From contig JAFRCC010000022.1 in NCBI GenBank assembly GCA_017404545.1, positions 86,448 through 150,447 on the forward strand: a stretch of DNA of 64,000 bases, read 5' to 3'. Under the pieces are notes generated by a model, which was given only the letters and a program-made list of their open reading frames with translations, was not told the DNA's origin and ran no database searches. Positions 29,671 to 37,815 of this stretch are shown piece by piece. Origin of the DNA: Clostridia bacterium. GTDB lineage: Bacteria; Bacillota; Clostridia; TANB77; CAG-508. Position numbers and translations under genes: made by a program. How positions within the stretch are numbered: the stretch's first letter is position 1; each line of letters starts with the position of its first letter.

Positions 29671-29857
29671 TTATTTTTCTCCTTTTTAATCATATACTAA
29701 TCTTTTCTCAATATATATAATAAACTTTAACACCAAATTATACACTTTTTTTGAATTTTAAGCAATACGCTCAAAAAAAATATACCACAACCATTTAATA
29801 TTAGAACAATAACGAATATTATGATAATTGCGAAAGATAAAATTTAATGCAAAAAAA

Positions 29858-29905
29858 GCGCCCAAACATAGTTTTCCATGCCCAAGCGCTCTTTTTTGTT
29901 TCAGA
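29858..29905 (-). terminator. Terminator-like GCGC-clamped hairpin with flanking A/T runs downstream of the radical SAM gene.
   Basis: aaaaaaagcgc...gcgctctttttt read directly. Confidence 0.4.
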
Positions 29906-29913
29906 AAATAAAT

Positions 29914-30951
29914 TTAATTGATAGTTCCGTCCGAATGCACAATCTTTTCGTTGTTGTAGTTGTAATAGCGTCTGTTTCCTCCTGAAATATCCATGTATTC
30001 TTTGAACGAAATATTAACCGCTTCATCGTCCATAACATGCTCTCCTCCAATAAACAACCCAATTGGGATGCTTACTGTTGTAGTTCGATATCCGGATGAA
30101 TTGTAAACAACGTAAGGCATTCTTCCTGTATGCCACATAACAAACATATCCAGCACGCTCTGAAAAAGATTCGAAGAAATATTCTTGTTACTGTATACGT
30201 CTTGCGGAGTATAGTGTATATCGAGATCCGAGAACAATATATCTTTAAACCCAAGCTTAATTGCCCAGTCGATATAATTAAAAATCTCTTCTCTGCTATC
30301 AATACCACCGCTCTGACACACACAATGAAGTAAGATTTTGCTTTTTTGTCCAGAGCAAAGTCCACGCATATCGGATGTTCTCAGTAAATCGACACCAGCT
30401 CCGAAAATTGCTTCATTCGCATGATCGTCATAGTGATGTCTACTAAGAATGATTCTGTCAAACATATGGCAAATATCGCACTTTGCATTCTCTGCTACCT
30501 CATCTGCTCTCTTCTCACCCAACAGAATTCCAATAATAGCCTGCCTAACACCATTGTGGTTATACAGATGTTTCAGATAAAGGTCTCTTGCTCCGTTTGT
30601 AACAATCTGACACTTGATATAGTTATACTCCGACAATTCATCAAAACGCACAAAGTTATCAGGCTCAGAGCACTGCTCTTTTATTTTCCGTACAAGAGCC
30701 AAGATTTTGTCAAACTGAAGAAGTGGCTCTCCTCCTCCAAAGACAATACGTTTGCAGTATGGTGCATACTGAAGTACAGTTTCATCCACTTTTTCTAAGC
30801 AAACAGTTTTGCAATTCTGGGCCTTCACCTTATTATGGCAAAAGCTACAATTGCACGGACATTCCACTCCGTATTCCACGTAAAGCTGGTTTTTCTGCAT
30901 CGTACAATTGTCGTTTACCCGCTCTCTTTTGAAATCGAACATGGTTTTCAT
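29914..30951 (-). CDS. Radical SAM domain protein (CX3CX2C as CPCNCSFC, GGEP motif), ~40% GC versus ~28% in flanks.
   Basis: Motifs plus composition shift read directly. Confidence 0.65.
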   Translation of the reverse strand: MKTMFDFKRERVNDNCTMQKNQLYVEYGVECPCNCSFCHNKVKAQNCKTVCLEKVDETVLQYAPYCKRIVFGGGEPLLQFDKILALVRKIKEQCSEPDNFVRFDELSEYNYIKCQIVTNGARDLYLKHLYNHNGVRQAIIGILLGEKRADEVAENAKCDICHMFDRIILSRHHYDDHANEAIFGAGVDLLRTSDMRGLCSGQKSKILLHCVCQSGGIDSREEIFNYIDWAIKLGFKDILFSDLDIHYTPQDVYSNKNISSNLFQSVLDMFVMWHTGRMPYVVYNSSGYRTTTVSIPIGLFIGGEHVMDDEAVNISFKEYMDISGGNRRYYNYNNEKIVHSDGTIN

Positions 30952-31064
30952 TCCTCCCTTAAAATTTAATTACCTTAAACGGATTTCGCTATTATATCAA
31001 GAAATACAAATTATGTCAAATTATAAACTCATTTTTTTAAATATACAGTTCCATACACTTGAAA

Positions 31065-31352
31065 TTATACAATTTCTTTCAATTTATCTACAAATTTGTC
31101 ATAATACTCTTTTACACAACTTGAAATTTCAATGTACATTTTACATTCTTCAGGAAAAGTATGCACAGCAAAATGGCTTTCTGAAAGCAACCATAGTGCA
31201 GTGTATCCCTGAACCTCAAAATAGTGCTCAGCTTTTTTTACAATTTTAAAACCACTTTCTACTAATATATTTTCTAATCGATCTATTATTTCCTTTTCCT
31301 TTGTTACATCATAAGTTATCCACTTATTGTAGTTATACATAATAGCTTTCAC
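31065..31352 (-). CDS. Small pyruvoyl-type S-adenosylmethionine decarboxylase-like protein.
   Basis: LLSESHFAVHTFPEE matches the AdoMetDC processing/active-site motif (ES|H...HTWPE). Confidence 0.6.
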   Translation of the reverse strand: MKAIMYNYNKWITYDVTKEKEIIDRLENILVESGFKIVKKAEHYFEVQGYTALWLLSESHFAVHTFPEECKMYIEISSCVKEYYDKFVDKLKEIV

Positions 31353-31418
31353 TTCGCCATCTCCTTTGAACTAAAGCTAAACTGTAGTTTATTTTCTTAA
31401 TTCTTAAAATTTCAAATG

Positions 31419-32939
31419 CTACCAATTTTGTACTTCTTCGTTATAGTATGTAATTAATGAGGGCTCGAACATGTTATTCTCACTAATTTTCTCAAGGTCC
31501 ACACTCTCGTCTTTTCCAAATACAAATAATGAATCTATATTATCAGCACTAAGGTATTTCGTATCTACAACCAAGTCATGTCTATTATGCTCTCCATTAA
31601 ATGCCATATTAAATCCCCATTCTCCAAATGAAGGAACTTGTATATGGTATGGAATAACATTTTCAAATTGTGTTTTTATTGTTTTATTTATACACCAATA
31701 TGATTTAGGTGCATAGTATGGACTGGTAGACTGGCAAACCATCACACCTTCTGGTGTTAAAATGTTTTTTACATAGTTATAAAAAACATCGGTGTACAAT
31801 TTATTTAATGTTGTATTATTTGGATCTGGAAAATCAATTATTATAACATCAAACAATTCTGTGTTCTCTTGTACAAACATATACGCATCTTGATTAATAA
31901 TAGTTAATTTTTCATTATCTAACGAACCACCATTTAATTTTGTTATCTCACTATTGTTTCTACACAAATCAGTCATATCTTTGTCAATATCTACTAATAC
32001 AATTTTCTGCACATCATTATATTTTAATATTTCCCTTGCTGCCAACCCATCTCCGCCACCTAATACAAGTACATTATGATGAGACTTAGCATACATCATT
32101 GGTATATGTACCAATGCTTCATGGTATCTGTACTCATCCATAGAGCTAAACTGTAAGTTTCCATCTAGAAATAATCTAACATCATCCTTGTGTTTAGTCA
32201 TTACAATCTTTTGGTATGGTGTTTGCTCCGACAAGATAATATCGTCCCTGTATAATCCAGCTTCTATCTTTTTTGTAATTATATTTGCAGAGCACAAAAA
32301 AGCTATAATTATAGATAAACATGTAATTGATATTGTTAAAACTTTTTTAAAACCTTCTATCTGTGACTTATATTTTATAATTATTAAAATTGCGGTAATT
32401 ACATTTATAGAGCCTACTAATAGTGCCGTTGTTATAAAACCAAGTTTTGGAAATAAAAATAGCGGAAAAGCAATAGATCCAACTAATCCACCTATGTAGT
32501 CAAAAGTGAATATATTAGCCAAATTTTTTCTTACATCACTATTATTCCCTTCAATTATTCTTGTTAGTATAGGTATTTCTAATCCAACGAAAATTCCTAT
32601 TAAAATGATTAATACATACATTACCAAATCATATATTTCTGTATATATATTTGCCATAAATAGAATGAATGTAGAAAATCCACCTAGCAAGCCTATACTC
32701 ATTTCTACAAAAATAAATTTGTTAAACAGTTTATTTTTTACATATTTTGACAAATAAGAGCCAATTCCCATTGCACTCATATATAAACCAATTGTTATTG
32801 AAAATTGTGTTATGCTATCGCCTTGAATATATGAACTAATGGCACTTATTAATAATTCATATATAATTGAGCAAATCGATATTAAAAGTGTTGTTATAAA
32901 TAAAAGCTTTATATCGAATTTTATACTTTTCTCTTCCAT
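31419..32939 (-). CDS. Membrane-anchored polyamine aminopropyltransferase (spermidine synthase)-like protein. N-terminal polytopic domain (~7 TM) plus C-terminal SpeE-like domain.
   Basis: VLVLGGGDGLAAREILKY, VDIDKDM and IIDFPDP SpeE motifs. The start could instead be at 32954. Confidence 0.65.
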   Translation of the reverse strand: MEEKSIKFDIKLLFITTLLISICSIIYELLISAISSYIQGDSITQFSITIGLYMSAMGIGSYLSKYVKNKLFNKFIFVEMSIGLLGGFSTFILFMANIYTEIYDLVMYVLIILIGIFVGLEIPILTRIIEGNNSDVRKNLANIFTFDYIGGLVGSIAFPLFLFPKLGFITTALLVGSINVITAILIIIKYKSQIEGFKKVLTISITCLSIIIAFLCSANIITKKIEAGLYRDDIILSEQTPYQKIVMTKHKDDVRLFLDGNLQFSSMDEYRYHEALVHIPMMYAKSHHNVLVLGGGDGLAAREILKYNDVQKIVLVDIDKDMTDLCRNNSEITKLNGGSLDNEKLTIINQDAYMFVQENTELFDVIIIDFPDPNNTTLNKLYTDVFYNYVKNILTPEGVMVCQSTSPYYAPKSYWCINKTIKTQFENVIPYHIQVPSFGEWGFNMAFNGEHNRHDLVVDTKYLSADNIDSLFVFGKDESVDLEKISENNMFEPSLITYYNEEVQNW

Positions 32940-32940
32940 T

Positions 32941-33147
32941 TTACAAAACACCACTCATTACTATGGCTATTGCTATAAACATGCCACCTACCATTATTCC
33001 TACAGCTTTATTGTGATTATCTATTTCCTCCGTTAAGCTAAAGTCTTTTTTAAAAATCAATGCTGTAGTGAAATATCCTAAAATACAAAATATTAAACCT
33101 ATTGCAACATATATAACTATCTCAATAATACTTGATAAAAATGTCAT
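32941..33147 (-). CDS. DUF350 small membrane protein.
   Basis: 68 aa, two TM helices, NKAVGIMVGGMFIAIAIV motif. Confidence 0.5.
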   Translation of the reverse strand: MTFLSSIIEIVIYVAIGLIFCILGYFTTALIFKKDFSLTEEIDNHNKAVGIMVGGMFIAIAIVMSGVL

Positions 33148-33162
33148 AAAAATACCTCCCTC

Positions 33163-33369
33163 TTATCTAATTACAGTTCTAATTATTATTGCCACAGCAA
33201 TAAATATACCAGCAATTATAAAACCTGCTCCAACATTTTTTTCTTTTAATTCTTTGTTGAAATTATATGGAACACATAAGTCAAAAATAAACATACAAAT
33301 CATCATAAGAATAATTCCTATTGTTGCATATCCTATGCTCCTTAAAATTTCCATCCAATCAATATTCAT
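33163..33369 (-). CDS. DUF350 small membrane protein (paralog).
   Basis: 68 aa. NVGAGFIIAGIFIAVAII. Confidence 0.5.
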   Translation of the reverse strand: MNIDWMEILRSIGYATIGIILMMICMFIFDLCVPYNFNKELKEKNVGAGFIIAGIFIAVAIIIRTVIR

Positions 33370-33430
33370 ACTATTTTCCTTTCTTGCGCATTACACATGC
33401 ACATGCTATATTTTTATTATAAATATATCT

Positions 33431-33991
33431 TTATTTTCCAGAGCTGGTTCCCCCTCCAGAGCTACTTCGACTATTTATACTACTTTGCCTTGCTGATGTA
33501 GCATAACTTCTGTATTTTGAATTTTCATTGCTTGAACTATAAGTTCTGTAATAATAGCTTCTATGCGAACTATGATATGTTGATCCAGAGCTTTCTACAT
33601 ACTTCTTTTCTGAAACCTGAACATAAACTTTTCCGTTTTCCATATATACATATGCGTACTCTTTTGACGTTTCTAGCCCAATTCCATCTTCATCAGTAGT
33701 TTCATCTAAGTCCTTTGTCTTAGTTATACCTTCCGGTACACCATCTATAATATCCTTTACGGTTTCATCGATTGTTGAAAAAGATGATTTATATAACTGA
33801 GCTTTTTTATTGTTCTCATTGCTTGTAACTGACGTTACATATTCGTACTTAGATGATTGTTTCTTTAGGTACGTTCTCATAGACTTATTTGTTAATAAAC
33901 CTGGAACCATTGAAAAAATACAAATTATAAAATATACTGATATTACACCAATAAATGTCGTTACTCCGTTTTGTATTTGCTTTCTTAGCAT
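33431..33991 (-). CDS. Membrane-anchored protein with a Ser/Tyr/Arg-rich low-complexity tail. The start codon sits at the end of an A8 run and overlaps the upstream DUF4178 ORF by 107 nt.
   Basis: N-terminal signal-anchor MLRKQIQNGVTTFIGVISVYFIICIF. The tail is SHRSYYYRTYSSS...SRSSSGGGTSSGK. Confidence 0.4.
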   Translation of the reverse strand: MLRKQIQNGVTTFIGVISVYFIICIFSMVPGLLTNKSMRTYLKKQSSKYEYVTSVTSNENNKKAQLYKSSFSTIDETVKDIIDGVPEGITKTKDLDETTDEDGIGLETSKEYAYVYMENGKVYVQVSEKKYVESSGSTYHSSHRSYYYRTYSSSNENSKYRSYATSARQSSINSRSSSGGGTSSGK

Positions 33992-34448
33992 TTTTTTTGT
34001 CTATCTCTTCAGTAACATTCAATTCATTATCGTAAATTTTGTAACCAATACTAACTTCTCTTTCACCATCCCAGTTTTCAACGGAAATTATTGTATTATC
34101 TTCTTCACATAAGTAGTCAAAAAAATTACATAGTTCATGTATATCTACATCAGCATTTCCAAAGTAGCTTTTTACATAAGCATTTCCACTTTCATATAGT
34201 TTATATTTCTTTTCATTAACATTAAATTCTATATTACTCTCATTTACGAATCCTCTGTATGGTTCATAAACATAGTATTCTAGCCTATTATTTTCATCTG
34301 GCTCAATGCTAAGCCACGTATGCTTATGTGTTTGTACATTTACAATTTCGTATTCTTGCCACACCCATGTACCTTCTTTAAATTCTATCATGTTAATTAC
34401 TACATTCTTTTCGCCTCGAATATATATAACTTGTCCCTTTTTTAGCAT
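33885..34448 (-). CDS. DUF4178-like protein.
   Basis: GTWVWQEYEIV...WLSIEPDE pattern. The C-terminal ~35 residues look non-coding (overlap). Confidence 0.45.
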   Translation of the reverse strand: MLKKGQVIYIRGEKNVVINMIEFKEGTWVWQEYEIVNVQTHKHTWLSIEPDENNRLEYYVYEPYRGFVNESNIEFNVNEKKYKLYESGNAYVKSYFGNADVDIHELCNFFDYLCEEDNTIISVENWDGEREVSIGYKIYDNELNVTEEIDKKNAKKANTKRSNDIYWCNISIFYNLYFFNGSRFINK

Positions 34449-34463
34449 TACACCAAATCTCCT

Positions 34464-34922
34464 CTACTCATCAAATTCATTTAATATTTTTATATCTGAC
34501 TTTTTTATTACCTTTCCAATACTTATTTCTGTTATATTTCTCCATTTTTCTATTGATAGAACTCTATTTAAATTTTCTTTACTTTCATATTCATAATATT
34601 CGTCCACATCTCCAACGGCAACATCAGTTAATCCATAATATGTTTCCACTTTTCCCTGTCCTTTCTCAAATAAAGAAAACTCCTCGCCATGAAAATTAAT
34701 ATTCATTTTTAATTCTATTGCACTTTCATCTTGTATTTCATATAGAATTGCCTTTTGAGACAATTCTACATTTAAATAATAGCATTTAAAACTCTCCATA
34801 TTTTGCAATTTGTACTCTATCCAATACGAAGACTTTTCCACAAATTTTGTCATATTTAACACCTTATATCTATTGCCTTCAATTCTTATGATTTGGCTCT
34901 CTTTCAAACTCAATACATCCAT
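34464..34922 (-). CDS. DUF4178-like protein (paralog).
   Basis: SSYWIEYKL...YYLNVELSQ pattern. Confidence 0.45.
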   Translation of the reverse strand: MDVLSLKESQIIRIEGNRYKVLNMTKFVEKSSYWIEYKLQNMESFKCYYLNVELSQKAILYEIQDESAIELKMNINFHGEEFSLFEKGQGKVETYYGLTDVAVGDVDEYYEYESKENLNRVLSIEKWRNITEISIGKVIKKSDIKILNEFDE

Positions 34923-34943: not shown

Positions 34944-36275
34944 CTATTTAAAATTTTTTATTTCTTCCCTTAAGCTTTTAAAATCAACTAATTTCCAAGA
35001 CCAATTTTCTGCTCTATCTACTCCTGGAAGATTAATTCTTGCACTATCATCCAGGCCTAAAATATCCTGTACAGTGAATACATCTATTTTTGATTTAGAC
35101 TTATTAAAATACTGCATCATACCAATATTAATATTTATATCATTACATTCATTATTTCTAAGAAATTTTTTTACATTCTCCTTATGTTCATCACTCAATG
35201 ACTTATACCATCCATATAAAGTTTGGCAATCATGGTTTCCTGGAAATGCTAGTACATTCTCATCATCATTATCAATATCAAATGAATTATTCAAATCTAG
35301 TGAAAATTGCAATATCTTTTGCCTTGTAAACCCATAGTGCTCTCTTAGTCTTTCAGTTTCGGCTCTTATATCGCCCAAATCTTCAACAATCAAGTCATCT
35401 GGATTTATATTTTTATATTTAAATAGTTCGTCGAAGAATCCATAACTAAATCCATCTGTATATTCACCATCTTTACCTGTAAGTCCAAACGGAATCCTAA
35501 AGAAAGAATCGTATCCTCTAAAATAATCTACTCTCAATTTATCAAATAATTTTAGCTGATATCTAAACCTATGTACAATATACTCGTAGTTATCCTTCTT
35601 TATATTTTCAACATTATATACTGGTGCATTCCATTTTTGCCCGTTATTATTATAATAATCTGGCGGAGTTCCTGCTTCAAAAGTATACTTTTTATCTTTT
35701 ATTTCATAGTATTTTGGATAGTAGATTGTTTCGACTGAATCAAAAACGGGATAGAATGGTAAATCTCCAATTATGTACACATTCTTTGCATTTGCATATC
35801 GCTTAAGCTCTATCCATTGTCTATTTAGTATAAATTGTAAAAATAAGTAGTACTCTACATCTTCCCCTTCAGTTTTATTCATATACTCGGCATATTGTCG
35901 CATTTCTTTATGTGTAATAAATCTATCGTATTTATCATTTTTCTTAAAATTTGCATATGCTTCTTTATAGTATTTTATTTTAAAATTATCATACACAGCT
36001 CTATCTGTAATTGGTCTTTCTTCTGGGTTACCAATTAATCCAGAGCTCTTTAATTTATCAAGTGATATAAAATCTTCTTCAAGTGCGTAGTAACTTATTG
36101 GTGAATATGGTAATCTATTACATGCATTAATTGGTAGAATTTCCCAATATTTTATTCCATTTTCACTTAATATATCTATAAATTCATATGCCTCATATCC
36201 AAAATCTCCAATTCCATATTTGCTTGGTAATGAATAGATTGGAAGTAATATACCTTTTTCTTTCATAATCTTCAC
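34944..36275 (-). CDS. malQ: 4-alpha-glucanotransferase (amylomaltase, GH77).
   Basis: N-terminal LLPIYSLPSKYGIGDFG motif. Length fits the short-form MalQ. Confidence 0.65.
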   Translation of the reverse strand: MKIMKEKGILLPIYSLPSKYGIGDFGYEAYEFIDILSENGIKYWEILPINACNRLPYSPISYYALEEDFISLDKLKSSGLIGNPEERPITDRAVYDNFKIKYYKEAYANFKKNDKYDRFITHKEMRQYAEYMNKTEGEDVEYYLFLQFILNRQWIELKRYANAKNVYIIGDLPFYPVFDSVETIYYPKYYEIKDKKYTFEAGTPPDYYNNNGQKWNAPVYNVENIKKDNYEYIVHRFRYQLKLFDKLRVDYFRGYDSFFRIPFGLTGKDGEYTDGFSYGFFDELFKYKNINPDDLIVEDLGDIRAETERLREHYGFTRQKILQFSLDLNNSFDIDNDDENVLAFPGNHDCQTLYGWYKSLSDEHKENVKKFLRNNECNDININIGMMQYFNKSKSKIDVFTVQDILGLDDSARINLPGVDRAENWSWKLVDFKSLREEIKNFK

Positions 36276-37140: not shown

Positions 37141-37815
37141 TCAGCTCTGGCTCATCATGATAAGAATATTGTTGCTAAGTTCATTCGGAAGCTGCCAGTT
37201 GTTTGCTCTACCATATTTTTTTGAATACAGCTCAGTTCCAACCAGCGCTCTCTTGAACACTTCCGGATACTTAACGCCAACATCCTTAAGATACTGCTCG
37301 CAAAGATTCGTCTTGAATATACGTCTGGATTCCCACGCCTGCATCATGTAATACAGAATATACTGGGCCTCAATGGGGCATGTGGGAATGTTCAGGTCCT
37401 GCCGGAGCGTAAACCATTCAATTTCCTCCAACTCGTAGCGATACACCGTGCCATATGTTTCAATGGTAATATCACCAATCAAGTCAAACGGAACACCATC
37501 CATCTCAGCTTCCTTGTAGTACGGACTGGTAAATGCGGCCTTCTGAATCGTATTGTGGTTAATTTTTCCACCCAAAGATTCAAAAACCTCTTCAAAGGCA
37601 GGAACGTCTTCCGGGGCAATGAGCAAATCAAAGTCATTGAAGTGGTCGTGAATACCACGAAGGAACAATGAGAGCGACATGCTTACCGCCCAACGTACGT
37701 TTTTTGTAGCCAGTTCAGTACAGAGCTTCTTAAGAATTGCCGTTTTGTCTACAAACTTGTGGCTCGTAAAGAGCGACATCTCGTTTGCAGCCCGCTGATA
37801 GTCGTATCTTTTCAT
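37141..37815 (-). CDS. Nucleotidyltransferase-fold protein (antibiotic nucleotidyltransferase-like) on a ~45% GC islet.
   Basis: SMSLSLFLRGIHDHFNDFDLLI resembles the NTase GS-x9-DxD core. The composition is strongly atypical. Confidence 0.4.
   Translation of the reverse strand: MKRYDYQRAANEMSLFTSHKFVDKTAILKKLCTELATKNVRWAVSMSLSLFLRGIHDHFNDFDLLIAPEDVPAFEEVFESLGGKINHNTIQKAAFTSPYYKEAEMDGVPFDLIGDITIETYGTVYRYELEEIEWFTLRQDLNIPTCPIEAQYILYYMMQAWESRRIFKTNLCEQYLKDVGVKYPEVFKRALVGTELYSKKYGRANNWQLPNELSNNILIMMSQS

What the first reader, a model, noticed from the sequence alone, without database searches (positions are those of the whole stretch)
29914..34922. Uncharacterised co-oriented cluster with polyamine-like enzymes and DUF350/DUF4178 membrane-associated proteins
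Eight co-oriented, tightly packed genes sit here. In transcription order they are:
- two DUF4178-like proteins
- a membrane-anchored protein with a Ser/Tyr/Arg-rich tail
- two DUF350 small membrane proteins
- a SpeE-like aminopropyltransferase fused to an N-terminal ~7-TM domain
- a small pyruvoyl-type AdoMetDC-like protein (ESH...HTFPE)
- a radical SAM enzyme
DUF350 and DUF4178 proteins recur next to envelope-stress (PspA-type) modules and polyamine-like enzymes in other bacteria. Here there is no PspA, and a radical SAM enzyme is appended. An AdoMetDC product (decarboxylated SAM) could feed the membrane-bound aminopropyltransferase, suggesting aminopropylation of a membrane-associated or exported substrate. 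The radical SAM partner may add a further modification. I am not aware of a characterised function for this ensemble.
Basis: partly seen in the sequence, partly recalled or inferred. Interest (0 to 1): 0.8.

Follow-up and report, generated by a model that had tools for sequence, protein, structure and literature searches.

The report
Known orphan aminopropyl-transfer membrane gene cluster
This is a gut or rumen Clostridia copy of a widespread, already described but still unsolved gene cluster that pairs a SAM decarboxylase with a membrane-anchored aminopropyl-transferase and DUF350/DUF4178 proteins; the neighbouring radical SAM gene is an unrelated, probably foreign gene, not part of it.

Summary
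All eight ORFs and all eight domain calls are real (Pfam/NCBIfam). Seven of them form a known orphan system, not a new one. Its parts are a class-1b AdoMetDC, an MFS-like membrane domain fused to a spermidine-synthase-like domain, DUF350 and DUF4178. Ravi et al. 2024 describe it and cite Li et al. 2019.

In 54 species with enough flanking DNA, from many phyla:
- DUF4178 sits beside the fusion gene in 54.
- DUF350 does so in 52.
- AdoMetDC does so in 44.
- This radical SAM family does so in 0.

Several results separate the radical SAM gene from the cluster:
- It has its own perfect sigma-70 promoter and a strong terminator.
- Its GC3 is 0.40, against 0.17-0.24 for its neighbours.
- It evolves much faster: 55-59% identity where SpeE keeps 88-89%.
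- It stays beside the cluster only in very close syntenic relatives.
- More distant homologues sit in unrelated contexts.

The "membrane protein with Ser/Tyr/Arg tail" is the C-terminal half of the second DUF4178 gene, split by one extra A in an A8 run. PspA-less clusters are the norm (1 of 80 has PspA).

The likely function is dcAdoMet-dependent aminopropylation of an unknown, non-putrescine acceptor at the membrane. Interest is modest.

The parts
34464..34922 (-). Small soluble DUF4178 protein (152 aa). It is a variable accessory copy.
   Evidence: Pfam DUF4178, 52.8 bits. No TM segment. A small DUF4178 gene is present in L008, L009, L027 and most Gram-negative loci, but absent in the closest relatives L002 and L006.
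33885..34448 (-). 5' half of the large DUF4178-TM gene. It holds the DUF4178 beta-rich domain, followed by 36 out-of-frame codons after the frameshift.
   Evidence: Pfam DUF4178, 67.4 bits. Colinear with residues 1-150 of the 342-348-aa orthologues. AF2 of orthologue P0136 gives an all-beta domain over residues 1-150 with pLDDT around 90.
33993..34000 (-). A8 homopolymer where the large DUF4178 gene is frameshifted (+1 A).
   Evidence: Deleting one A gives a 338-aa ORF that aligns end to end with orthologues. Of the 120 best homologues, 119 are 333-361 aa and only this lineage's protein is 187 aa. The A-run is absent in relatives.
33431..33991 (-). 3' half of the large DUF4178-TM gene. It holds one TM helix, an alpha/beta domain of about 100 aa, and a Ser/Tyr/Arg-rich tail that ends in the conserved ...SARQSSINSRSSSGGGTSSGK.
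   Evidence: One TM helix, at residues 166-184 of the repaired protein. The tail motif is conserved in the Firmicute-type cluster loci, including two from Bacteroidota genomes. The AF2 domain at residues 194-290 has pLDDT 76-94. An in-frame ATG lies directly after the A-run, so separate translation is possible.
33163..33369 (-). DUF350 (YjfL-type) 2-TM protein. It corresponds to the N-terminal half of the 4-TM form.
   Evidence: Pfam DUF350, 52.8 bits, model positions 6-65 of 133. Two TM helices. DUF350 lies directly upstream of the fusion gene in 52 of 54 loci.
32941..33147 (-). Second DUF350 2-TM protein. It corresponds to the C-terminal half of the 4-TM form.
   Evidence: Pfam DUF350, 44.5 bits, model positions 70-132 of 133. 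Most Clostridia loci have a single DUF350 gene of about 140 aa instead.
31419..32939 (-). N-terminal MFS-like multi-TM domain (about 7 helices, residues 1-220) fused to a C-terminal aminopropyltransferase (spermidine-synthase-like) domain. 506 aa.
   Evidence: Spermine_synth 146.8 bits; NCBIfam PRK03612 611 bits (cutoff 472); MFS_SpdSyn 57 bits (cutoff 40); canonical speE TIGR00417 165 bits, below its 249.55 cutoff. GGGDG, VDID and DxPDP are invariant and align to solved aminopropyltransferases. More than 8000 homologues.
31065..31352 (-). Short (95 aa) class-1b AdoMetDC (SpeD) homologue, the presumed dcAdoMet supplier.
   Evidence: Pfam AdoMet_dc 52.2 bits. NCBIfam TIGR03330 scores only 42.3, below its 75.65 cutoff. 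The ES processing site, HTFPE and Cys align to 2III and 1TLU. It lacks the last 20-30 residues found in other cluster-linked homologues and, in this clade, lies downstream rather than upstream of the cluster.
30991..31019 (-). Consensus sigma-70 promoter (TTGACA, 17 nt with TG, TATAAT) in the gap before the radical SAM gene.
   Evidence: 12 of 12 match. It is the only perfect site in 8.5 kb.
29914..30942 (-). Orphan radical SAM protein (342 aa from the second ATG). It is a neighbour, not part of the cluster.
   Evidence: Radical_SAM 39.5 bits. Only 12 homologues were found. GC3 is 0.40 against 0.17-0.24 for neighbours. The AF2 model resembles MoaA, viperin and SuiB only generically, TM about 0.5. 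It is absent from all 54 informative cluster loci.
29848..29896 (-). Intrinsic terminator after the radical SAM gene.
   Evidence: 21-bp hairpin, -25 kcal/mol, z = -4.9, followed by U7.

Best explanation
Positions 31065-34922 hold a Clostridia version of the widespread orphan 'AdoMetDC / membrane-fused aminopropyltransferase / DUF350 / DUF4178' cluster.

Proposed working:
1. The small pyruvoyl SpeD homologue decarboxylates SAM to dcAdoMet.
2. The spermidine-synthase-like domain is held at the cytoplasmic face of the membrane by its MFS-like domain. It transfers the aminopropyl group to an amine acceptor that is not putrescine.
3. The acceptor is most plausibly a membrane-associated molecule, such as a lipid head group, or a compound handled or translocated by the MFS-like domain.
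4. The DUF350 membrane proteins and the membrane-tethered DUF4178 proteins are obligate accessory subunits, acting as scaffold, sensor or carrier.

In this organism the system is rearranged but probably functional. DUF350 is split into two half-genes. The large DUF4178 gene is split by an A8 frameshift. speD is shortened and moved downstream.

The radical SAM gene at 29914-30942 is a separate, probably horizontally acquired, monocistronic gene that lies next to the cluster only in a narrow clade.

Shown: gene content, family membership, conservation of the four-family core, intact catalytic motifs, and the independence of the radical SAM gene. Inferred: the direction of metabolite flow, the cytoplasmic location of catalysis, and the nature of the acceptor.
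For: - All domain calls pass curated cutoffs.
- The core is conserved across Bacillota, Bacteroidota, Acidobacteriota, Gemmatimonadota, Proteobacteria, Planctomycetota and others. There were at least 600 genome hits. In 54 loci with enough flank, DUF4178 is present in 54, DUF350 in 52, AdoMetDC in 44 and all three in 44.
- The dcAdoMet-binding and catalytic motifs are invariant and align to solved enzymes: GGGDG, VDID and D369-x-P-D372-P.
- The SpeD processing motif is conserved.
- PMC11237479 describes the operon with the 7TM-spermine-synthase fusion, DUF350 and DUF4178, and suggests 'aminopropylation of other substrates'. PMC12803844 states that the bacterial fusion proteins are experimentally uninvolved in spermidine or spermine synthesis.
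- Radical SAM independence: consensus promoter; terminator; GC3 outlier; 55-59% identity where SpeE keeps 88-89%; an extra 226-aa gene inserted between it and speD in L002; absent at 73% SpeE identity in L008; homologues in four unrelated contexts with no shared neighbour.
Against: - No acceptor is known for any member, and nothing here identifies one.
- I could not read Li et al. 2019 directly. Its content comes from citing papers and from my own memory.
- This clade's SpeD homologue is truncated at the C-terminus and scores below the NCBIfam equivalog cutoff, so its activity is not assured.
- The frameshift could mean the system is decaying here.
- There is no terminator between speD and the radical SAM gene, so read-through co-transcription cannot be excluded.
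- 10 of 54 loci lack an adjacent AdoMetDC.
Confidence: 0.6

Rival explanations
1. The cluster is a genuine polyamine machine. It makes spermidine or another polyamine at the membrane and exports it directly through the MFS-like domain (vectorial synthesis).
For: NCBIfam names the protein 'polyamine aminopropyltransferase' and it passes that equivalog cutoff. Both active-site Asp residues that bind a diamine acceptor in canonical enzymes are kept. Many Gram-negative versions carry a flavin amine oxidase directly downstream (45 loci). Deleting a fungal homologue was reported to lower spermine.
Against: PMC12803844 reports that the bacterial homologues were experimentally shown to be uninvolved in spermidine or spermine synthesis. 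It also reports that the fungal APT-like domain made no spermine in E. coli. The canonical speE model TIGR00417 scores 165, below its 249.55 cutoff. The obligate DUF350 and DUF4178 partners have no role in known polyamine pathways.
Confidence: 0.13
2. In this narrow clade the radical SAM enzyme has been recruited as a working add-on. It is co-transcribed by read-through and further modifies the aminopropylated product or a cluster protein.
For: It lies directly downstream and is co-oriented. No terminator lies between speD and it, and the first strong terminator comes after it. The adjacency is kept in at least three related species (L002/L003, L006, and probably the contig carrying P0003).
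Against: These relatives share synteny over the whole region, so the adjacency is not independent evidence. The gene has its own consensus promoter. A 226-aa gene is inserted between it and speD in L002. It is absent from 54 of 54 other cluster loci. Family members elsewhere lack the cluster. Its base composition looks foreign.
Confidence: 0.08
3. The cluster is decaying in this organism and is non-functional. The large DUF4178 gene is frameshifted and speD is truncated.
For: A +1 frameshift in an A8 run splits a gene that is intact in 119 of 120 homologues. SpeD is 95 aa and lacks the C-terminal strand.
Against: All other ORFs are intact. Both halves keep the family's invariant residues, including the C-terminal tail. 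An ATG lies exactly at the junction, so both halves can be made. The 95-97-aa SpeD form is shared with L002, L006, L008 and L009, and so is maintained across species. The split alleles occur on 6-7 contigs.
Confidence: 0.12

Closest known systems
[quoted passage not shown] Cited; details of the abstract are from my own memory.
   Same: The same three families are adjacent. The fusion architecture is the same, with a multi-TM N-terminus and a SpdSyn-like C-terminus. The AdoMetDC type is the same. The function is unknown and the acceptor is presumed not to be putrescine.
   Different: Here speD is a shortened 95-aa form placed downstream. DUF350 is two half-size genes. The activity of this particular set was not tested.
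PspA-CesT/Tir operon with the 7TM-spermine-synthase fusion, DUF350 (YjfL), DUF4178 and the Ctha_1186 lipoprotein, e.g. Shewanella oneidensis AAN56744-AAN56747 (Ravi et al. 2024, PMC11237479).
   Same: 7TM-aminopropyltransferase fusion, DUF350 and DUF4178 in one operon, with a proposed membrane-related role.
   Different: No PspA, no CesT/Tir and no lipoprotein here. PspA is rare among the nearest 80 species, 1 of 80. The Firmicute large DUF4178 protein has an extra C-terminal domain and a conserved ...RQSS.N.R.SSGGG.S.GK tail.
Canonical SpeD/SpeE spermidine pathway
   Same: The same two enzyme superfamilies and the same cofactor logic (dcAdoMet donor). Catalytic motifs are conserved.
   Different: SpeE here is membrane-fused and below the speE equivalog cutoff. 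SpeD is below its equivalog cutoff. Homologues are reported not to make spermidine.
E. coli yjfIJKLMC-type operons: PspA-like YjfJ, DUF350 YjfL and the glutathionylspermidine-synthetase-like YjfC (described).
   Same: DUF350 is paired with a polyamine-type enzyme.
   Different: The enzyme differs (ATP-grasp ligase, not an aminopropyltransferase). No DUF4178. PspA is present.
MprF (lysyl-phosphatidylglycerol synthase/flippase). Functional analogy only, from my own knowledge.
   Same: A multi-TM domain fused to a cytoplasmic transferase that could place a cationic group on a membrane component.
   Different: No sequence relationship was tested or claimed. Donor and chemistry differ. No lipid product is known for this system.
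Pyricularia (Magnaporthe) oryzae membrane-protein/APT-like fusion, reported as a spermine synthase (discussed in PMC12803844).
   Same: The same fusion architecture. It is said to be homologous only to the bacterial fusion proteins.
   Different: It is eukaryotic, with no cluster context, and its claimed spermine synthase activity is disputed.

Membership tests
Orphan AdoMetDC / MFS-aminopropyltransferase / DUF350 (/DUF4178) cluster | Multi-TM (MFS-like) N-terminal domain fused to a C-terminal spermidine-synthase-like domain | tested here: met
   About 7 TM helices in residues 1-220. Spermine_synth at residues 275-457. NCBIfam PRK03612 611 bits (cutoff 472) and MFS_SpdSyn 57 bits (cutoff 40).
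Orphan AdoMetDC / MFS-aminopropyltransferase / DUF350 (/DUF4178) cluster | Adjacent class-1b AdoMetDC homologue with a self-processing Glu-Ser site | tested here: met
   Pfam AdoMet_dc 52.2 bits (cutoff 25). SESH, HTFPE and Cys align to 2III and 1TLU. Caveats: the C-terminus is truncated and the protein is below the TIGR03330 cutoff.
Orphan AdoMetDC / MFS-aminopropyltransferase / DUF350 (/DUF4178) cluster | DUF350 membrane protein directly upstream of the fusion gene | tested here: met
   Two DUF350 genes at 33163-33369 and 32941-33147. The second ends 1 nt before the fusion gene's start codon. The same position is seen in 52 of 54 loci.
Orphan AdoMetDC / MFS-aminopropyltransferase / DUF350 (/DUF4178) cluster | DUF4178 protein(s), one of them membrane-anchored, upstream of DUF350 | tested here: met
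   Present in 54 of 54 loci.
Orphan AdoMetDC / MFS-aminopropyltransferase / DUF350 (/DUF4178) cluster | Does not make spermidine or spermine (acceptor is not putrescine) | not testable with these tools
   Known only from the literature on homologues. It needs biochemistry or genetics.
PSP (PspA-CesT/Tir) envelope-stress operon variant of Ravi et al. 2024 | PspA/IM30 homologue, with a CesT/Tir-like chaperone, in the operon | tested here: not met
   No PspA homologue in the window. Only 1 of 80 related loci has one. No PspA-like cluster appeared among the conserved neighbours.
Canonical spermidine synthase SpeE | Passes the speE equivalog model (TIGR00417); soluble protein of about 290 aa | tested here: not met
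   165.4 bits, below the 249.55 cutoff. The protein is 506 aa with a membrane domain.
Bona fide AdoMetDC (TIGR03330 SAM_DCase_Bsu equivalog) | Passes the equivalog cutoff; full-length class-1b fold | tested here: not met
   42.3 bits, below the 75.65 cutoff. It lacks the C-terminal 20-30 residues. The catalytic motif is nevertheless present.
Radical SAM superfamily | CxxxCxxC cluster motif and a partial TIM-barrel core | tested here: met
   C31, C35 and C38 are invariant. Pfam Radical_SAM 39.5 bits (cutoff 29.5). The AF2 model matches MoaA, viperin and SuiB with Foldseek probability 1.0.
Any named radical SAM family (MoaA, viperin/pVip, PFL/NrdG activase, HxsC, SPASM maturases) | Passes the family's curated model cutoff | tested here: not met
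   All NCBIfam hits are far below cutoff and cover only the N-terminal 60-90 residues. PADLOC pVip scores 21 bits on the N-terminus only. TM scores are about 0.5.

The most novel reading that the evidence does not exclude

Caveats: the fold is a very common SH3/Tudor-like barrel. Across phyla the only near-universal DUF4178 residues are Trp, Glu, Leu and Gly. There is no conserved Lys, so support is weak.
Probability: 0.06. Interest if true: 0.85.

Novelty: new member of a known kind. Interest (0 to 1): 0.3.

Why it matters
The four-family core sits in thousands of genomes from many phyla, and its product is unknown. It is one of the clearer cases of orphan chemistry built on polyamine-type enzymes, and it may bear on membrane charge or envelope stress.

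This window adds nothing fundamentally new to that question. It does document a compact Firmicute layout without PspA, oxidase or lipoprotein, which narrows the minimal system to four families: SpeD, the TM-aminopropyltransferase, DUF350 and DUF4178. It also shows that the DUF4178-TM protein may tolerate being split, that a 95-aa 'mini' SpeD is maintained in one clade, and that Firmicute versions share a sharply conserved C-terminal tail that could be followed up.

The radical SAM hook that made the finding look novel does not hold.

Tried and rejected
- Radical SAM as a cluster member: rejected.
- Radical SAM as a defence gene or viperin: PADLOC gives only a 21-bit N-terminal match, and structural matches are generic. 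No assignment is possible.
- A shared partner gene for the radical SAM family: none across four independent contexts.
- Programmed frameshift or phase variation at the A8 run: unlikely. The run is not conserved in relatives, which encode the fused protein without it.
- PspA linkage: not present.
- A second speD or speE copy in the window: none.
- Reading Li et al. 2019 directly: the paper is not held, and a search for newer functional work on the fusion found nothing relevant.
- First look-up of the fusion protein from the GTG start failed. The ATG at 32939 is the annotated start.
Full report
**What is there**

The region lies on the minus strand of a low-GC contig (29.7% GC). The contig is identical to a 306-kb metagenome scaffold and to NCBI MAG proteins annotated 'Clostridia bacterium'. 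The organism is a spore-former, with cotJA/B/C nearby.

- two DUF4178 proteins
- an ORF with one TM helix and a Ser/Tyr/Arg-rich tail
- two 68-aa DUF350 proteins
- a 506-aa protein with about 7 N-terminal TM helices and a C-terminal Spermine_synth domain. It passes NCBIfam PRK03612 (611 bits, cutoff 472) and 'fused MFS/spermidine synthase' (57 bits, cutoff 40).
- a 95-aa AdoMet_dc protein
- a radical SAM protein

Co-orientation alone is not informative, because nearly every gene in the 64-kb window is on the minus strand.

**Anatomy corrections**

- Genes 2 and 3 overlap by 107 nt. The junction is an A8 run at 33993-34000. Removing one A gives a 338-aa ORF that aligns end to end with 342-348-aa orthologues.
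- Of the 120 best database homologues of the repaired protein, 119 are 333-361 aa. Only this lineage's own entry is 187 aa.
The frameshift is therefore probably real rather than an assembly error.
- The A-run is absent in relatives, so programmed slippage is unlikely. An ATG sits exactly at the junction, so both halves could still be made.
- AlphaFold of orthologue P0136 gives four parts: a confident all-beta DUF4178 domain (residues 1-150), a TM helix, a confident alpha/beta domain (residues 194-290) and a helical or low-complexity tail.
- The Firmicute-type cluster loci, including two from Bacteroidota genomes, share a sharply conserved C-terminus...S-x-RQSS-x-N-x-R-x-SSGGG-x-S-x-GK. Gram-negative versions instead end with a TM helix, FExxRWxESDY and an acidic tail.
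- The two DUF350 genes match the two halves of the Pfam model. Most Clostridia carry one gene of about 140 aa and Gram-negatives one of about 70 aa.
- The radical SAM gene most likely starts at the second ATG (30942), which lies 10 nt after a GGGAGGA Shine-Dalgarno sequence and matches homologue N-termini.

**Conservation**

A scan of one genome per species gave at least 600 confirmed hits. I kept the best 80 loci, which span Bacillota, Bacteroidota, Acidobacteriota, Gemmatimonadota, Proteobacteria, Planctomycetota and others.

I called ORFs in these loci and searched them with iterated profiles built from the window's proteins. Among the 54 loci with at least 4 kb upstream and 1.5 kb downstream:

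| Partner beside the fusion gene | Loci (of 54) |
|---|---|
| DUF4178 | 54 |
| DUF350 | 52 |
| AdoMetDC | 44 |
| all three | 44 |
| this radical SAM family | 0 |

The usual gene order is speD, small DUF4178, large DUF4178-TM, DUF350, then the fusion gene. In the window's clade speD has moved downstream of the fusion gene.

De novo clustering of the other neighbours found two recurrent partners in Gram-negative versions: a flavin amine oxidase directly downstream in 45 loci, and a Band-7/zinc-ribbon protein in 13. Clostridia versions have no further conserved partner. A PspA homologue was found in only 1 of 80 loci and nowhere in the window. Lack of PspA is therefore the norm for this branch.

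**The radical SAM gene is not part of the system**

- Rarity: only 12 homologues were found in 5.8 billion clusters.
- Synteny only: the homologues at 55-59% identity lie in close relatives whose whole region is syntenic (GH77 upstream; P-type ATPase, LPG_synthase_TM and GT8 genes downstream). In one of them an extra 226-aa gene separates speD from the radical SAM gene.
- Faster evolution: in those same genomes the fusion protein is 88-89% identical, so the radical SAM gene evolves much faster.
- Early loss of the adjacency: at 73% fusion-protein identity (L008) it is already absent.
- Unrelated contexts: homologues at 44, 40, 32 and 30% identity lie in unrelated neighbourhoods, and these contexts share no neighbour.
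- Own signals: the 113-nt gap before the gene holds the only 12-of-12 sigma-70 consensus promoter in 8.5 kb. The gene ends at a 21-bp hairpin of -25 kcal/mol (z = -4.9) followed by U7.
- Composition: its GC3 is 0.40, against 0.17-0.24 for every neighbour, which suggests horizontal acquisition.
- No family assignment: the AlphaFold model (pLDDT 77.7) resembles MoaA, viperin and SuiB only at TM about 0.5. No curated family model is passed. The family keeps extra invariant cysteines (C158, C161, C199, C212) and an SRHHYDD motif.
- Caveat: no terminator lies between speD and this gene, so read-through is possible.

**Mechanism**

The aminopropyltransferase domain keeps GGGDG, VDID and D369-x-P-D372-P, invariant among 12 homologues. 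These align to the dcAdoMet-binding and catalytic positions of solved enzymes 7XIF, 1IY9 and 6BQ2. It is probably catalytically active.

The SpeD homologue keeps the Glu-Ser processing site, HT[FW]PE and the Cys of class-1b AdoMetDC (2III, 1TLU). In this clade it lacks the last 20-30 residues and scores below the NCBIfam equivalog cutoff.

dcAdoMet is a cytoplasmic metabolite, so catalysis is inferred to occur at the inner face of the membrane.

The literature gives the current view:
- Ravi et al. 2024 describe the operon with the 7TM-spermine-synthase fusion, DUF350 and DUF4178, and propose 'aminopropylation of other substrates' that affects membrane structure. They cite Li et al. 2019.
- A 2025 JBC paper states that the bacterial fusion proteins were experimentally shown to be uninvolved in spermidine or spermine synthesis.
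- From my own memory of the Li et al. 2019 abstract, which I could not read here: the associated AdoMetDCs are active, spermidine is absent, and the fusion protein does not complement an E. coli speE mutant.

My best estimate is a dedicated dcAdoMet-dependent aminopropylation of a non-putrescine, membrane-associated acceptor, with DUF350 and DUF4178 as obligate partners.

| Claim | Confidence |
|---|---|
| Membership in the known orphan cluster | about 0.9 |
| Radical SAM gene is not part of it | about 0.85 |
| General mechanism | about 0.55 |
| Any specific acceptor class | no more than 0.3 |

**DUF4178**

Across 111 domain instances from 76 loci, only four residues are near-universal: a Trp, a Glu (together a W-x-E motif), a Leu and a Gly. 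There is no conserved Lys and no obvious catalytic set.

**Verdict**

It is a new member of an already described orphan system, in a slightly rearranged Firmicute layout. The feature that made it look new, the radical SAM partner, is a chance and probably foreign neighbour.

Noticed in passing
window 33993-34000 (minus strand): An A8 homopolymer carries a +1 frameshift that splits the conserved DUF4178-TM gene of about 340 aa into 187-aa and 186-aa ORFs. The same split alleles occur on 6-7 contigs, and relatives lack the A-run.
   Followed up: yes
window 33431-33500 (C-terminus of gene 3); L002, L006, L008-L026, L029: The Firmicute-type large DUF4178 proteins end in a near-invariant tail, ...S-x-RQSS-x-N-x-R-x-SSGGG-x-S-x-GK-COOH, predicted to lie outside the membrane. 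Gram-negative versions end differently: TM, then FExxRWxESDY, then an acidic tail. The tail's function is unknown.
   Followed up: partly
window 29914-30942: Orphan radical SAM family with only 12 homologues found. It has extra invariant cysteines (C158-x2-C161, C199, C212) and an SRHHYDD motif, GC3 of 0.40 in a genome with GC3 near 0.2, and its own consensus promoter and strong terminator. No conserved partner gene appears in four independent contexts.
   Followed up: yes
window 37141-37815: A 224-aa gene with a weak NTP_transf_5 match has GC 0.44 and GC3 0.53, the strongest compositional outlier nearby. It is probably another horizontally acquired gene.
   Followed up: no
window 31065-31352; L002, L006, L008, L009: A 'mini' AdoMetDC of about 95-97 aa (true length in L008 and L009 uncertain). 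It lacks the C-terminal strand found in other class-1b enzymes, has moved downstream of the fusion gene, and is maintained across several species of this clade.
   Followed up: partly
L030-L087 (Gram-negative loci), directly downstream of the fusion gene: A flavin amine oxidase of about 540 aa (Amino_oxidase/NAD_binding_8) follows the fusion gene in 45 loci. A Band_7_1 plus zinc-ribbon protein lies upstream in 13. Small 61-68-aa ORFs sit between the large DUF4178 gene and DUF350 in about 19 loci.
   Followed up: partly
window 22580-26469: About 3.5 kb downstream of the cluster lies a set of membrane-lipid or glycolipid-type genes: LPG_synthase_TM, two GT8 glycosyltransferases and an acyltransferase. 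The set is syntenic in close relatives. No link to the cluster was tested.
   Followed up: no
window 34944-36275: A GH77 4-alpha-glucanotransferase gene ends only 21 nt before the first DUF4178 gene and is kept there in the closest relatives only. It may share a transcript with the cluster but is not conserved with it elsewhere (4 loci).
   Followed up: partly
L017 (Paludibacteraceae) and L021 (Dysgonomonas): Two Bacteroidota genomes carry Firmicute-type versions of the cluster. Their fusion proteins are 52-57% identical to the window's, and L021 has the Firmicute C-terminal tail and a split DUF350. This suggests inter-phylum transfer or MAG contamination.
   Followed up: no
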